Shown in pieces: positions 34,420-37,658 of a stretch of DNA of 64,000 bases. How positions within the stretch are numbered: position 1 is the first letter of the stretch; each line of letters opens with the position of its first letter. The DNA comes from a phage. The stretch is from the sequence record PZ476263.1; one strand, given 5' to 3'. The translations under genes were made by a program, and so were the position numbers. Below the pieces are notes generated by a model, which was given only the letters and a program-made list of their open reading frames with translations, did no database searches and was not told where the DNA came from.

Positions 34420-36036
34420 ATGCCTACTGTAGCTCGTGGTATCACAGGGGATCAAAAAGGGATATACTATGGTTACGCCCTTTATGATTTAGAACAGAAA
34501 CGTAAAATACCGCTCAAGGATCTTTTTGGTTCTGGCGGCGGTCAAGGTGAAGTTGGTAACCAAGGTCCACGAGGTGAGCAAGGTCCTATCGGGACTCAAG
34601 GCCCAGCAGGGCCTGTAGGACCCGAGGGTCCGATAGGGCCAGTTGGTCCGGTCGGACCAAAAGGGGATGAAGGTCCGAGAGGTCTAAAGGGGGAGCAAGG
34701 CGATAAAGGTCTTGACGGAGCAGATGGGGCGAAGGGTGACAAGGGCGATAAGGGCGACCAAGGGGCTGTCGGGCCAGAAGGCCCTCAAGGTCCTCAGGGC
34801 GAGCAAGGCCCCGCTGGTGCAACTGGTGCAACTGGTCCAACTGGACCTCTTGGTCCACAGGGTCCTCAAGGACCTGTAGGTCCTAAAGGTGACAAGGGGG
34901 ATCAAGGCCCCGCAGGTCCGGCGGGATTGGATTGGAAAGGTGACTATGAAACTTCTGCAACTTACAGTGTGAATGACCTTGTTTCCTATAATGGTAAAGT
35001 TTATTTCGCTATTCAAGAGGGCACAGGTCAGTCTCCTGATACTGTTGGAAGTGAATACTGGACAGAGTTGGCTATCCAAGGTGGAAAGGGAGATCAAGGC
35101 GAGCAAGGCCCCGCAGGTCCAACGGGTCCTCAGGGACCAGAAGGTCCTCAAGGTCCTTCCGGTATGCCAGGGGCTACAGGTCCACAAGGACCGATAGGTC
35201 CTAAAGGAGATATTGGGCCTGAAGGACCCGAAGGTCCTAAAGGAGATACGGGTGAGCAAGGCCCTAAAGGAGATAAAGGAGATAAGGGAGATACCGGACC
35301 AGAGGGTCCGCAAGGACCTATCGGTCAGACTGGCCCCGCTGGCCCTGAAGGTCCGCAAGGTAATATAGGACCTGCTGGCCCTCAAGGCCCTCAAGGTGTT
35401 ACTGGTATGACTGGAGCCACGGGTTCTGTCGGACCTCAAGGCCCTCAGGGGGTTAAGGGGGATAAAGGTGACACCGGAGCCACAGGTGAAAAAGGTGAAA
35501 AGGGAGATAAAGGGGATAAAGGTGATACAGGCGCTACTGGACCGAAAGGTGAAAAGGGCGACCGTAGCATGTATTATTATAACCAAACTGTCCAAACACC
35601 TTGGTATAGAGATGGTGGTAGGATAGATCATATGCTACCTAATCATCCTCATCTTAGTATTTCTGTGACAGGTACAGCCACAGATACAACTGCTGGCGGT
35701 GGTTTACAGGTTGTAATAAGTAATCTTGCCAACAATGATCCTAACGGCAGGGATGTTAATGGCGCTTATTTCTATAATCTTATGGATGCAGAATTTCCTG
35801 CAAAAAATAAGATAGTGGCAGGTCCTTATACATGGATAAGACAAAATGGTGCATACTACGTAACAACGGATGCTCAACCAATGAATGGTAGACGTGCGGT
35901 ATTAGAAATAGATATCTCTGATTTCGATACCAAGCAAACTTGGCACGCTAGATTGTACTCTAGCTTCAACCCTACATCACCTACCTCTCTCGGTTTATAT
36001 ACCATAGAAATAAGAGAAACCTCAGCTCAACCTTAA
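34420..36036 (+). CDS. collagen-like fiber protein, paralog A (538 aa)
   Basis: N-terminal [22 protein letters not shown], long G-X-Y runs, central [12 protein letters not shown] module, non-collagenous C-terminal domain. Confidence 0.65.
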
Positions 36037-36074
36037 TTTAATTATAATTCACAGGGACGTGATTAGGAGATAAT

Positions 36075-37658
36075 ATGACGAATTCTGTAGTAGGTATGGC
36101 AGGTCACAATAATGGTGTATTTTATGGATACTCTCTTTATGACTTGGAGCAAAAAAGAAAGATAGCCTTTAAAGATTTAACTAAGGGTGACTCAGGGGCG
36201 AAGGGCGATAAGGGTGATCCTGGTCCAGAAGGTCCACAAGGTGATAAAGGAGATACCGGAGAGCAAGGCCCTGTAGGACCTCAAGGTCCTGCTGGTGCAC
36301 CAGGGCAACAAGGTGTGCCTGGTGAAAGAGGACCTCAAGGTCCCGAAGGCCCACAAGGCCCTCAAGGCCCAATTGGTCCCGAAGGACCAGTAGGACCAAT
36401 CGGCTCCCAAGGTCCCGAAGGTCCTAAAGGAGAGCAAGGTGAACAAGGCCCTTCTGGATCTCAAGGTCCTCAAGGATTAAAAGGGGATACAGGGGCACAA
36501 GGACCTCAAGGTCCCGTTGGACCCAGAGGAGAGACAGGTGCAACAGGACCTGTTGGACCTAAAGGGGACACAGGCCCAACAGGTCCAAAAGGAGAAACGG
36601 GTGAACAGGGACCCATTGGTCCGCAAGGACCTAAGGGTGATACAGGTCCCGTGGGTCCTGCAAGCTTAACCTTCAGAGGTTTCTATGAACCTCTTGAAGA
36701 ATACAACGAAAAGGATACAGTAGCTTATAATGGTTCTACTTATTTTGCGTTAAGAACCAGTACAGGAGCAACACCGGATATTTCTCCCGATGACTGGGCA
36801 TTACTTGCAGCTGAAGGTGCAGTTGGACCACAAGGACCTATGGGACCAGAGGGTCCGCAAGGTATCGCTGGTGCTCAAGGTCAGGAAGGCCCTATAGGAC
36901 CGCAAGGTGAACAGGGTCCGGTTGGACCTGTTGGCCCACAAGGCCCACAAGGTCCTGCGGGTCAGGAAGGAATAGAAGGCCCTCAGGGACCTCAAGGAGA
37001 AGAAGGCCCTATGGGACCTCAGGGACCACAAGGGATTGTAGGACCAACAGGTCCACAAGGCCCTCAAGGCCCCAAAGGGGACACTGGTGCAGTTGGACCA
37101 CAAGGTCCTCAAGGCCAACAAGGTCTTGATGGTCCACAAGGCCCTGCTGGTCCGCAAGGCGAAAGAGGTGTTACTGGACTAACCGGACCCCAAGGTCCCA
37201 AGGGTGATATCGGCCCTGTGGGTCCGGCTGGCCCTCAAGGTAAGGATGGTAATTCTTACACTATCTACAACTGGGGCAACATATCAACGGGCTATGGTGA
37301 GATGGTAATACCTGGTGTTACTAACACAGTATTCAGAGTGAGACGAGTAGGAACCACATTAGAATACAGTGTACTTAGTAAAGGTGGTGCGAATAGATAC
37401 CTTGACTTCCATACCATAATTCCAGCCCCCTCTACAGGGGGCGCTGTAATTATCCAATCAGGAAATACAACATTGACATCCTCCAGCTCTTTAAATGTTG
37501 TTACATCTGCACCTCCTGGTCTTGGTTTTCGACCAATATTCATCTCTTTAAAAGAGTGGGGAGATAGGGCAATAGTAACCATAGAGGTTTTCCACACAGG
37601 TAGAAGTGGAGATTCCAGTTACCCAATACATGTTCGTATGCTAACGACGAAGTATTGA
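36075..37658 (+). CDS. collagen-like fiber protein, paralog B (527 aa)
   Basis: N-terminal [25 protein letters not shown] runs, central [12 protein letters not shown] module, different C-terminal domain. Confidence 0.65.

What the first reader, a model, noticed from the sequence alone, without database searches (positions are those of the whole stretch)
34420..37658. Two paralogous collagen fibers share N-terminal and central modules but have unrelated C-terminal domains
Both start with a conserved anchor (G(I/V)(Y/F)[16 protein letters not shown]) and share a central YNG..YFA... module. The last ~150 residues differ completely ([20 protein letters not shown]... versus [22 protein letters not shown]...). 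This is the pattern expected for duplicated receptor-binding proteins with swapped distal tips, i.e. a built-in dual host-range cassette.
Basis: partly seen in the sequence, partly recalled or inferred. Interest (0 to 1): 0.6.

Follow-up and report, generated by a model that had tools for sequence, protein, structure and literature searches.

The report
Paired collagen fibres, probably on the phage head
A large E. coli-type phage carries two neighbouring genes for long collagen-like fibres with the same attachment end and mid-piece but unrelated outer tips; where the genes sit and what they resemble suggest hairs on the phage head that help it stick to surfaces, not the tail fibres that decide which host is infected.

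Summary
ORFs 34420..36036 (P1, 538 aa) and 36075..37658 (P2, 527 aa) share an N-terminal anchor (65.5% over 29 aa), two uninterrupted collagen stalks and a central CBM5/12-like knob (40% over 52 aa). Their C-terminal tips (~135-157 aa) show no similarity beyond chance and no profile-level homology. Both genes are intact, have ribosome-binding sites and sit in one terminator-bracketed unit.

Tip swapping is real: the same stalk carries at least four mutually undetectable tip families in relatives, and some tips are nearly identical across myo-, sipho- and podophages.

The fibres are probably not tail receptor-binding proteins:
- The genes lie between the major capsid gene and the neck genes.
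- In the solved relative phiTE, the two modelled baseplate fibres are non-collagen; the third is not identified.
- The anchor is homologous to the N-terminus of phiTE pTE217, the candidate hexamer-centre capsid "Pagoda" protein, which is encoded in the same slot.
- Homologs in T4-like phages sit beside hoc-like genes, and those in T1-like phages beside the capsid gene.

The pair is a mosaic, not a recent duplication. P2 matches the single fibre of phages A7_1/A5-4. P1's tip is a near-orphan under purifying selection.

Best reading: two capsid-displayed adhesin fibres. Their location on the virion has not been shown directly.

The parts
29168..29191 (+). Intrinsic terminator after the major capsid gene; upstream boundary of the fibre transcription unit
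   Evidence: 10-bp stem with 5 GC pairs, followed by TTTATTATGC. phiTE has an annotated terminator at the same place, after phiTE_213.
29258..29887 (+). ORF of 209 aa, PHROG 3259 (unknown function); first gene of the unit
   Evidence: E 1e-48. Conserved position in A7_1, LTH01, CR3, phiTE and PVP-SE1. Not detected in W70 virions.
29941..33729 (+). Large collagen-like virion protein (1262 aa, PHROG 3904), with 9 GXY segments, repeated knob modules and foldon-like motifs near the C-terminus
   Evidence: The W70 orthologue W70_131 has the highest spectrum count in the virion (2032).
33772..34407 (+). ORF of 211 aa, PHROG 4998; conserved virion protein that always precedes the anchor-bearing gene(s)
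   Evidence: E 7e-59. tblastn finds it in 113 phage records. W70_130 and CB7_11 were detected in virions.
34410..34414 (+). Shine-Dalgarno sequence GAGGT for P1
   Evidence: Read from the sequence.
34420..34527 (+). P1 N-terminal type-A anchor (aa 1-36)
   Evidence: 65.5% identity to P2. Anchor HMM E 3e-22. Homologous to the pTE217-family N-terminus: hhalign probability 91.6%, score 30.4 versus 8.1 +/- 1.7 for shuffles.
34528..34932 (+). P1 collagen stalk 1 (45 uninterrupted GXY triplets)
34933..35079 (+). P1 central CBM5/12-like knob
   Evidence: Pfam CBM_5_12 E 2.8e-4, below threshold. The family profile hits the chitinase A1 chitin-binding domain 1ED7 at E 1.4e-4.
35080..35565 (+). P1 collagen stalk 2 (54 GXY triplets)
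35566..36036 (+). P1 distal tip (about 156 aa plus stop); near-orphan, predicted all-beta domain
   Evidence: No phage tblastn hit. No hit in the word-indexed database. One true relative among 1.84 billion representatives (P0002, 76% identity). None in IMG/VR or JGI metagenomes. pN 0.19 versus pS 0.85.
36065..36069 (+). Shine-Dalgarno sequence AGGAG for P2
   Evidence: Read from the sequence.
36075..36185 (+). P2 N-terminal type-A anchor (aa 1-37)
36186..36662 (+). P2 collagen stalk 1 (53 GXY triplets)
36663..36815 (+). P2 central CBM5/12-like knob
36816..37256 (+). P2 collagen stalk 2 (49 GXY triplets)
37257..37658 (+). P2 distal tip (133 aa plus stop); beta-sandwich shared with fibres of T4-like, T1-like and T7-like coliphages
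37663..37684 (+). Intrinsic terminator immediately after P2; downstream boundary of the unit
   Evidence: 9-bp stem with 5 GC pairs, followed by ATTTTTAT. phiTE has an annotated terminator after phiTE_217. No terminator lies between P1 and P2.

Best explanation
P1 and P2 are two trimeric, roughly 85-90 nm collagen-like fibres, co-transcribed from the head-gene module and built into the virion through the same short N-terminal anchor. They most likely project from the capsid surface, at or near hexamer centres, either directly or through the conserved PHROG 4998 neighbour protein.

Each fibre is anchor, collagen stalk, CBM5/12-like knob, collagen stalk, then a distal beta-rich tip. The tips, and possibly the knob, act as low-affinity adhesins that hold the virion on cell-surface or environmental polymers before the baseplate fibres commit to infection. 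Because both fibres carry the same anchor, one particle would display a mixture of two tip specificities.

The pair arose by mosaic recombination, not recent duplication. P2 and the DNA downstream are A7_1/A5-4-like. P1 is a separate lineage whose tip is almost unique.

Shown: sequence architecture, paralogy, non-homology of the tips at sequence level, gene context, anchor homology to pTE217, tip exchange among phages, purifying selection.
Inferred: trimer formation, capsid location, adhesin function, mixed display.
For: Gene order is TerL, portal, protease, decoration protein, MCP, then [PHROG 3259, big collagen protein, PHROG 4998, P1, P2], then head completion, neck, sheath and onward to the baseplate and three tail-fibre genes. 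Terminators bracket the five-gene block.

phiTE cryo-EM (PMC11972413):
- STF (coiled coil plus Ig domains) and LTF (beta-helix) are non-collagen. They correspond to PHROGs 12846 and 4549, which lie downstream in the window.
- The connector consists only of portal, adaptor, head-completion and terminator rings.
- The capsid carries an unmodelled, symmetry-mismatched hexamer-centre 'Pagoda' density assigned to pTE217.
- phiTE_217 lies in exactly the P1/P2 slot.
- Its N-terminus is homologous to the P1/P2 anchor: hhalign probability 91.6%, E 8e-7, and 0/200 column shuffles reach the score.

Other context:
- The PVP-SE1 slot gene hits the 'head fiber protein' PHROGs.
- Homologs in T4-like phages lie near Hoc-like genes, directly beside them in JS10, VR26 and Kosakonia 305. 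In Drexlerviridae they lie directly before the major capsid gene.
- Orthologues are virion proteins (W70_129, CB7_12).
- Precedent: SPP1 gp12, a collagen-like trimer bound at hexon centres.
- The knob matches chitin-binding CBM5/12.
Against: - No structure or imaging places any type-A fibre on a capsid.
- The pTE217 = Pagoda assignment rests on mass-spectrometry abundance only, and pTE217 shares only the roughly 40-aa anchor with P1/P2.
- The plain anchor HMM did not find pTE217; only the profile-profile comparison did.
- In T4-like phages hexamer centres are normally taken by Hoc, so the same anchor may dock elsewhere or through another protein.
- phiTE's 'third putative fibre' is not identified in the text I could read. 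It could be the big collagen protein of this operon.
- W70 electron microscopy reported a bundle of thin, flexible tail fibres and no head hairs.
- In podophage PAS7 the homolog lies next to the tailspike gene.
- Databases label the family 'tail fiber'.
Confidence: 0.55

Rival explanations
1. One reading: P1 and P2 are tail or baseplate-attached receptor-binding fibres, and the two tips give the phage two host specificities.
For: - PHROG 5073 and all GenBank/RefSeq records call the family 'tail fiber'.
- Collagen-like prophage proteins (EPcl) are thought to be side tail fibres (PMC3368898).
- Tips vary between close relatives, as RBP tips do.
- The PAS7 homolog is adjacent to a tailspike gene.
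- W70 TEM shows thin flexible fibres at the tail.
- phiTE has an unidentified third fibre.
Against: - The genes are in the head module, separated from the baseplate and fibre genes by neck, sheath, tube, TMP and baseplate genes.
- phiTE's STF and LTF are other, non-collagen proteins.
- The anchor is homologous to the capsid Pagoda candidate encoded in the same slot.
- Homologs in three other phage families lie next to hoc-like or MCP genes.
- The 'tail fiber' labels are homology-propagated, not experimental. The W70 authors themselves listed the orthologue as a virion protein of unknown function.
Confidence: 0.2
2. Neck or collar whiskers: the fibres attach at the head-tail junction like T4 fibritin, and help assembly or environmental sensing rather than decorating the whole capsid.
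For: - The genes lie immediately upstream of the head-completion and neck genes.
- The neighbouring large collagen protein carries foldon-like motifs (Pfam Fibritin_C, E 4.8e-8).
- Collar-whisker systems exist in several myophages, including T4, XM1 and Bas63.
Against: - The phiTE connector contains only portal, adaptor, head-completion and terminator rings, with no collar or whiskers reported.
- pTE217 is the fifth most abundant virion protein, which fits about 100 or more sites better than 6-12.
- No collar-protein homolog was found in the unit.
Confidence: 0.15
3. One paralog, most likely P1, is a passenger or non-assembled remnant of recombination, so the virion effectively carries only one fibre type.
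For: - All sequenced relatives manage with one type-A fibre.
- P1 has no close nucleotide relative, and its tip is almost absent from databases.
Against: - P1 is intact, with 99 uninterrupted GXY triplets, a good Shine-Dalgarno site, and no terminator before P2.
- Its tip is conserved under purifying selection against a diverged metagenomic orthologue (pN 0.19, pS 0.85).
- That orthologue is also followed by a second anchor-type gene start.
- Certreviruses routinely carry two anchor-bearing genes in this slot.
Confidence: 0.07

Closest known systems
phiTE pTE217 ('Pagoda' candidate; PHROG 20253) and the short Certrevirus slot proteins CR3 gp010 / POP15_010 / PBES02_117 (PHROG 21621)
   Same: - Same genomic slot, after the PHROG 4998 gene and before the head-completion gene, ending at a terminator.
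- Homologous N-terminal anchor of about 40 aa (hhalign probability 91.6%).
- Virion proteins.
- CR3 gp010 also has a short GXY run.
- Certreviruses often carry two anchor-bearing genes in tandem.
   Different: - pTE217 is 164 aa with no collagen, knob or tip. CR3 gp010 is 103 aa.
- P1 and P2 are more than 520 aa, with about 100 GXY triplets, a CBM5/12-like knob and a large tip.
- The anchors fall into two sub-types (A and B) that a simple HMM does not link.
- The capsid location of pTE217 is itself only putative.
Bacillus phage SPP1 gp12 (collagen-like capsid auxiliary protein)
   Same: - Collagen-like trimer encoded in the capsid gene module next to the MCP gene.
- Binds hexon centres with a 3-on-6 symmetry mismatch.
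- Non-essential, with a flexible distal end (PMC6813328, PMC6316719).
   Different: - gp12 is 64 aa with 8 GXY triplets and no distal domain.
- It has no sequence homology to the anchor (hhalign probability 0.2%).
- It is an analogue, not a relative.
Single collagen fibres of Septuagintavirus-like phages (A7_1 gp112, A5-4, A73_143/W70_129, LTH01, UPEC06; PHROG 5073)
   Same: - True orthologues: same slot, anchor, stalks and knob.
- P2 is 92.6% identical to A7_1 gp112 at nucleotide level over the fibre and the downstream gene, and its tip is 99% identical at protein level.
- W70_129 is confirmed in virions.
   Different: Each of those phages has one such gene. The window has two, and P1's tip occurs in none of them.
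Collagen 'tail fiber-like' proteins of T4-like phages (VR26 gp244, JS10 gp176, IME08 gp169, Kosakonia 305 gp246) and of Drexlerviridae (e4/1c gp11, MM01_19, AugustePiccard bas01_0010)
   Same: - Same stalk, knob and stalk plan.
- Same tip families (P2-type A/B, LTH01-type).
- VR26 and Kosakonia 305 even share the type-A anchor.
- All are encoded beside head genes.
   Different: - Drexlerviridae versions use a different N-terminal domain of about 105 aa (two DUF1737).
- JS10 has a divergent N-terminus.
- None occurs as a pair.
EPcl collagen-like prophage proteins of EHEC (Ghosh et al. 2012) / lambdoid side tail fibres
   Same: Trimeric phage collagen-like proteins with a globular C-terminal trimerisation domain, proposed to act in attachment.
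   Different: - The EPcl architecture (PfN, collagen, PCoil, PfC) is absent.
- Pfam finds only Collagen and a weak CBM_5_12 hit in P1 and P2.
- EPcl genes lie in tail-fibre loci.
T4 Hoc / T5 pb10 / phi29 gp8.5 head decorations and head fibres
   Same: - Proposed functional analogy: non-essential capsid-displayed adhesins (review PMC7602432).
- The PVP-SE1 slot protein carries a phi29-type head-fibre C-terminus.
   Different: - Different folds: Ig-like for Hoc and pb10, helical for gp8.5.
- No sequence relationship to P1 or P2.

Membership tests
Baseplate-attached tail fibre / receptor-binding protein | Encoded in the tail/baseplate module, adjacent to baseplate wedge or other fibre genes | tested here: not met
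   P1 and P2 lie between the MCP gene (28156..29151) and the head-completion and neck genes (37716..39247). The baseplate and fibre genes are at 45282..58774.
Baseplate-attached tail fibre / receptor-binding protein | N-terminal domain that docks on the baseplate, seen in a virion structure | tested here: inconclusive
   In phiTE the STF and LTF are non-collagen proteins. A third fibre is not identified in the text available. No structure exists for a type-A anchor.
Baseplate-attached tail fibre / receptor-binding protein | Required for adsorption, and determines host range | not testable with these tools
   Needs knock-outs and adsorption assays.
pTE217 / Certrevirus slot-protein family (putative hexamer-centre 'Pagoda' decoration) | Homologous N-terminal anchor | tested here: met
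   hhalign of a 10-sequence type-A profile against a 4-sequence type-B profile: probability 91.6%, E 8.4e-7, score 30.4 versus 8.1 +/- 1.7 for 200 column shuffles, 0/200 reaching it. A plain HMM search did not link them.
pTE217 / Certrevirus slot-protein family (putative hexamer-centre 'Pagoda' decoration) | Same genomic slot: after the PHROG 4998 gene, before head completion, terminator downstream | tested here: met
pTE217 / Certrevirus slot-protein family (putative hexamer-centre 'Pagoda' decoration) | Physically located at capsid hexamer centres | not testable with these tools
   Even for pTE217 this assignment rests on mass-spectrometry abundance only.
SPP1 gp12-like collagen capsid auxiliary protein | Collagen GXY repeats in a protein encoded in the capsid module | tested here: met
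   99-102 uninterrupted triplets; head-module context.
SPP1 gp12-like collagen capsid auxiliary protein | Sequence homology to gp12 | tested here: not met
   hhalign of the anchor profiles against gp12: probability 0.1-0.2%. An analogue only.
EPcl / lambdoid collagen-like side tail fibre | PfN, PCoil and PfC (phage fibre N/C) domains flanking the collagen | tested here: not met
   A Pfam scan at E <= 0.1 finds only Collagen and CBM_5_12.
CBM5/12 carbohydrate-binding module (central knob) | Profile match to the chitin-binding domain over its full length | tested here: inconclusive
   - Single-sequence Pfam scores are below the gathering threshold (21.3 and 16.1 bits versus 26.2).
- The 12-sequence profile hits 1ED7 at E 1.4e-4 over 40 of 45 residues, and also several chitinase CBMs.
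- Sugar binding was not tested.
Collagen + gC1q/TNF-like head (BclA / C1q type) | C-terminal jelly-roll of the C1q/TNF fold | tested here: not met

The most novel reading that the evidence does not exclude
The short type-A/B anchor is a portable plug for a conserved site on the capsid lattice of unrelated tailed phages (Vequintavirinae and T4-like). Collagen stalks with interchangeable adhesin tips circulate among coliphage families as capsid-coat cassettes. This phage displays two different adhesins on one capsid, including a tip fold seen almost nowhere else. Capsid decoration, not only the tail, would then be a combinatorial determinant of where the phage sticks and what it infects.
Probability: 0.3. 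Interest if true: 0.7.

Novelty: new variant of a known kind. Interest (0 to 1): 0.45.

Why it matters
Hundreds of phage genomes label this protein family 'tail fiber', and host-range prediction tools take such labels at face value. If the fibres are capsid-borne:
- A widespread class of supposed RBPs should be removed from host-range models.
- The unmodelled 'Pagoda' density of phiTE gains a testable family context.
- Coliphages from four families would be seen to share an exchangeable set of capsid adhesins, larger relatives in kind of SPP1 gp12 and functional cousins of Hoc.
- This phage would be a natural test case for mixed display of two adhesins on one capsid.

If they turn out to be tail fibres after all, the pair is a plain dual-RBP arrangement of the kind already known from other phages.

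Tried and rejected
- **Remote homology between the two tips.** Rejected at sequence level: BLASTP with shuffles and hhalign in global and local modes. Fold-level identity stays open, because the single-sequence AF2 model of P1's tip failed (pLDDT 40.7).
- **P1 tip as a distant member of the LTH01-type tip family.** One pairwise BLASTP gave E 5e-4 without composition correction. This did not hold against a 5-sequence profile (E 0.44).
- **More P1-type tips.** No phage tblastn hit. No hit in the word-indexed 5.8-billion-sequence database. None in IMG/VR or JGI metagenomes. No exact-sequence match. The exhaustive HMMER search gave one fragment; the three other hits there are repeat-protein artefacts.
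- **A shared partner protein that would explain the same anchor in T4-like and Vequinta-like phages.** None found. The PHROG 4998 protein shows no similarity to the VR26 Hoc-like protein. All-against-all BLAST of the loci gave only fibre hits and antisense collagen-frame artefacts.
- **W70 spectral counts as a copy-number estimate.** Rejected as too unreliable: portal, sheath and fibres give similar counts per kDa.
- **Literature searches for collagen head fibres in coliphages.** No direct study found.
- **Papers not held.** Zairi et al. 2014 (SPP1 gp12) and Watson et al. 2019 (phiTE deletion mutants) were not available.
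Full report
**What is there**

The window is part of a roughly 140-kb myophage of the Vequintavirinae, closest to the Septuagintavirus-like E. coli phages A7_1, A5-4, A73, W70, LTH01 and UPEC06. The two ORFs of the finding are exactly where stated: P1 at 34420..36036 (538 aa) and P2 at 36075..37658 (527 aa). Both are collagen-repeat proteins (Pfam PF01391, E 5e-43 and 1e-48) and both fall best into PHROG 5073.

Each protein has five parts:
- a 36-37 aa N-terminal anchor;
- an uninterrupted GXY stalk (45 triplets in P1, 53 in P2);
- a knob of about 50 aa;
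- a second stalk (54 and 49 triplets);
- a C-terminal tip of 133-156 aa.

At about 0.86 nm per triplet (general knowledge of collagen geometry) each fibre would be roughly 85-90 nm long.

**Checking the observation**

I compared the segments separately, with 200 shuffles of each.

| Segment | Identity | Bits | Shuffles reaching the score |
|---|---|---|---|
| Anchor | 65.5% over 29 aa | 46.6 | 0/200 |
| Central knob | 40.4% over 52 aa | 45.4 | 0/200 |
| Tips | best HSP only | 13.9 (shuffle mean 14.6) | 124/200 |

I built an 11-sequence profile of P2-type tips from phage homologs. Comparing it with the P1-type tip (P1 plus its only relative) by hhalign gave probability below 1% and E >= 0.2, in both global and local modes.

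One caveat remains. The P2-tip model (pLDDT 77, pTM 0.73, ten beta strands) matches the tips of many phage collagen-like proteins in BFVD at only 8-19% identity. P1's tip could not be modelled (pLDDT 40.7). A common fold is therefore not excluded.

The knob is a CBM5/12-like module. Single-sequence Pfam hits are sub-threshold. A 12-sequence profile hits the chitin-binding domain of chitinase A1 (1ED7) at E 1.4e-4 over almost its full length, along with other chitinase CBMs.

**Both genes look functional**

P1 has GAGGT and P2 has AGGAG at the right distance from their ATG codons. No terminator lies between them. Strong intrinsic terminators sit after the capsid gene (29168-29191) and immediately after P2 (37663-37684). 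Five genes therefore form one unit: PHROG 3259, a 1262-aa collagen protein (PHROG 3904), PHROG 4998, P1 and P2. phiTE has annotated terminators at the equivalent two places.

P1's tip is almost an orphan:
- no phage tblastn hit;
- no hit in the word-indexed 5.8-billion-sequence database;
- none in IMG/VR or JGI metagenomes;
- one true hit among 1.84 billion representatives, P0002, a 290-aa fragment with 76% identity.

Against that orthologue the tip shows pN 0.19 versus pS 0.85. That is strong purifying selection, so it is not a decaying copy. On that 1.1-kb contig (L007) the stop codon is followed by a new gene starting MSKSISGIAG, which resembles a type-A anchor start. The pair therefore probably exists in at least one other phage.

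**Origin of the pair**

This is not a recent tandem duplication. At nucleotide level P1 and P2 share only out-of-register collagen-repeat matches. The window aligns with LTH01 (74%) up to the first about 35 nt of P1. It aligns with A7_1 (89%) from 18 nt into P2 onwards. The body of P1 has no nucleotide relative.

P2 is the orthologue of the single fibre of A7_1/A5-4, and its tip is 99% identical at protein level. All sequenced relatives have one type-A fibre gene here. A tblastn with the anchor peptide found no phage record with two such sites. The pair is a mosaic insertion or retention.

**Tip exchange is real and crosses phage families**

On the same stalk architecture I found at least four tip families that are mutually undetectable by sequence:
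- P1-type;
- P2-type, with two distant subtypes (A and B, about 33% identical);
- LTH01-type;
- UPEC06-type.

P2-type A tips occur in T4-like VR25, VR26 and JS10 and in T1-like e4/1c, AugustePiccard and RobRod40. The subtype-B tip of A73/W70 is nearly identical in siphophage MM01 and podophage PAS7. LTH01-type tips occur in the Certreviruses CR3, CR8, PBES02 and POP15 and in T4-like IME08.

**Where the fibres sit on the virion**

The window's gene order is terminase, portal, protease, PHROG 2970, head decoration, MCP, the five-gene fibre unit, head completion, Neck1, minor head protein, sheath, tube, chaperone, TMP and baseplate. Three tail-fibre genes then follow (PHROGs 12846, 4549 and 15692) at 50992-58774.

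In the cryo-EM structure of the related Certrevirus phiTE (PMC11972413), the baseplate carries three fibres. One is an STF (coiled coil plus Ig domains). One is an LTF (helical bundle plus beta-helix). The third is a putative fibre that is not identified. Neither modelled fibre is collagen-like, and their descriptions fit the downstream fibre genes. The connector has only portal, adaptor, head-completion and terminator rings.

The phiTE capsid carries an unmodelled hexamer-centre 'Pagoda' density. Its contact region 'lacks symmetry and order', as expected for a trimer sitting on a six-fold site. The authors assigned it to pTE217 because that is the fifth most abundant virion protein.

phiTE_217 sits in exactly the P1/P2 slot, after the PHROG 4998 homolog phiTE_216 and before head-completion phiTE_218, with a terminator behind it. 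Its N-terminus is MAAIGGTSLGLVTGYAIMDQETGQVKTISELFEGG. This aligns end to end with the P1/P2 anchor. The profile-profile comparison gave probability 91.6%, E 8.4e-7 and score 30.4. The mean for 200 column-shuffled controls was 8.1 +/- 1.7, and none reached the observed score. A plain HMM did not connect the two sub-types, so I call them type A (long fibres) and type B (short proteins).

Scanning all fetched loci shows that the slot holds one or two anchor-bearing genes in the relatives where the anchor profile detects them:

| Phages | Genes in the slot |
|---|---|
| phiTE, CB7, KaOmega | type B only |
| CR3, PBES02, POP15, SSBI34 and three IMG/VR contigs | type B + type A |
| Septuagintavirus-like phages | one type A |
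| This window | two type A |

CR3 gp010 (103 aa: anchor, short GXY run, small C-terminal domain) resembles SPP1 gp12 in plan. The PVP-SE1 slot protein (84 aa) fell below the anchor-profile threshold. It hits the PHROG 'head fiber protein' families (phi29 gp8.5-type C-terminus), and its N-terminus resembles the type-B anchor by eye.

**Independent context from other phage families**

In T4-like JS10, VR26 and Kosakonia 305 the homologous collagen gene lies directly upstream of, and in the same orientation as, a Hoc-like head-decoration gene. The locus is the gp24-hoc-inh head region. In IME08 the gene is in the same region, with two small genes between it and hoc.

In the Drexlerviridae e4/1c, MM01, AugustePiccard and a Logan contig, it lies directly upstream of the major capsid gene, after decoration or cement genes. 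This is the same position as gene 12 in SPP1.

VR26 and Kosakonia 305 even carry the type-A anchor. Only in podophage PAS7 does the gene lie near a tailspike gene, and there the N-terminus is different.

**Experimental anchors from the literature**

- The W70 orthologue (W70_129, PHROG 5073), W70_130 (PHROG 4998) and W70_131 (PHROG 3904) are abundant virion proteins. The authors list them as 'virion structural protein', not tail fibre (PMC11370258).
- CB7_10, CB7_11 and CB7_12 are MS-confirmed virion proteins.
- SPP1 gp12 is a 64-aa collagen-like trimer. Sixty trimers bind the hexon centres at the MCP A-loop tips. It is non-essential, and its gene lies between the scaffold and MCP genes (PMC6813328, PMC6316719).
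- gp12 has no sequence similarity to the anchor, so it is a functional precedent, not a relative.

**Best explanation**

P1 and P2 are two trimeric collagen fibres expressed from the head module. They join the virion through one shared anchor, most likely on the capsid lattice. Attachment could be direct or through the conserved PHROG 4998 protein. They present two different distal domains, plus a CBM5/12-like knob, as accessory adhesins. This would make them functional cousins of Hoc, pb10, phi29 head fibres and SPP1 gp12 (review PMC7602432). I put this at about 0.55.

Rivals:
- Neck whiskers: about 0.15. The foldon-like motifs in the neighbouring large protein keep this alive.
- One non-assembled paralog: about 0.07.

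Main weaknesses:
- The pTE217 = Pagoda assignment is itself putative.
- Only about 40 residues link P1/P2 to pTE217.
- Hoc normally occupies hexamer centres in T4-like phages.
- phiTE's third fibre is not identified in the text I could read.
- No image shows head hairs.

**Novelty and verdict**

The protein family is known and widely, probably wrongly, annotated as tail fibre. Modular tips on phage fibres are ordinary.

What is new here:
- the pairing of two long type-A fibres in one phage;
- an almost unique tip domain under selection;
- the inference, from synteny and anchor homology, that this cross-family fibre system belongs to the head.

That makes it a new variant of a known kind, of moderate interest (0.45). 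The finding's observation is confirmed. Its interpretation is partly supported: modular swapped tips, yes; tail RBP host-range cassette, probably not.

Noticed in passing
window 29941..33729 (foldon-like motifs at about 33220..33450): The 1262-aa collagen protein upstream has 9 separate GXY segments interrupted by at least 5 repeated 'LP...GD.Y.I...W' knob modules. Near the C-terminus it has three tandem foldon-like motifs (e.g. EAPTDGGDYVRKNGTWSTL and EAPLEGGFYVRENGEWVKL; Pfam Fibritin_C E 4.8e-8). Its W70 orthologue has the highest spectrum count of any virion protein.
   Followed up: partly
window 19065..20824: The tRNA cluster holds Met(CAU), Tyr(GUA), Gly(UCC), Gln(UUG) and Pro(UGG). Gly, Pro and Gln are the residues enriched in the three collagen genes: 21%, 9.2% and 6.7% of codons, against 8.2%, 3.6% and 3.9% in other late genes. 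The tRNA set may support collagen-fibre translation.
   Followed up: partly
L003:7415-8998 (A73), L010:3837-5378 (MM01), L006:5278-6378 (PAS7): The roughly 140-aa subtype-B tip is nearly identical in a Vequintavirinae myophage, a Drexlerviridae siphophage and an Autographiviridae podophage. This indicates recent cross-family transfer of the tip, together with part of the stalk.
   Followed up: partly
L012:4752-5063 (CR3 gp010); also L014:1947-2237, L015:1815-2063, L025:6632-6955: Certreviruses encode a short protein of 82-107 aa made of a type-B anchor, a few GXY triplets and a small C-terminal domain. In plan it strongly resembles SPP1 gp12. In CR3, POP15 and PBES 02 it lies in tandem with a long type-A fibre, so paired anchor-bearing genes are common in the subfamily.
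   Followed up: partly
L023:6653-6907 (PVP-SE1 gp066): The slot protein of PVP-SE1 (84 aa) combines a type-B-like N-terminus with a C-terminus matching the PHROG 'head fiber protein' families (14753, 4366, 20838; phi29 gp8.5-like). RefSeq annotates it as head fiber protein.
   Followed up: partly
L005:3591-4880 (AugustePiccard bas01_0009): The 'putative head outer capsid protein' immediately upstream of the Drexlerviridae collagen gene contains a GDSL esterase/lipase domain (PF13472, E 4e-13) and hits a 'head decoration' PHROG. This suggests a capsid-displayed esterase next to the collagen fibre.
   Followed up: no
L009:3879-5396, L010:3837-5378, L005:4963-6396: Drexlerviridae versions of the fibre replace the short anchor with an N-terminal region of about 105 aa containing two DUF1737 repeats (E 2e-9 and 7e-8). 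This is a second, unrelated attachment module on the same stalk, knob and tip chassis.
   Followed up: no
L014:2284-3477 (POP15_012): The annotated start of POP15_012 cuts off the anchor. The open frame upstream encodes ...[19 protein letters not shown]..., so the deposited CDS is probably 5'-truncated or the start was miscalled.
   Followed up: no
window 34684..35631 (-), 36801..37157 (-), 31420..31905 (-) and other overlapping ORFs: Long antisense and out-of-frame ORFs of up to 315 aa inside the collagen genes are artefacts of the GXY codon periodicity. They also produce spurious cross-hits between loci.
   Followed up: yes
L007:1058-1129: The only other carrier of the P1-type tip is a 1.1-kb Logan contig from SRR29134454. 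About 40 nt after the stop codon it starts a new gene, MSKSISGIAG..., which resembles the A73/UPEC06 anchor start. The two-fibre arrangement therefore probably exists in a second, diverged phage.
   Followed up: partly
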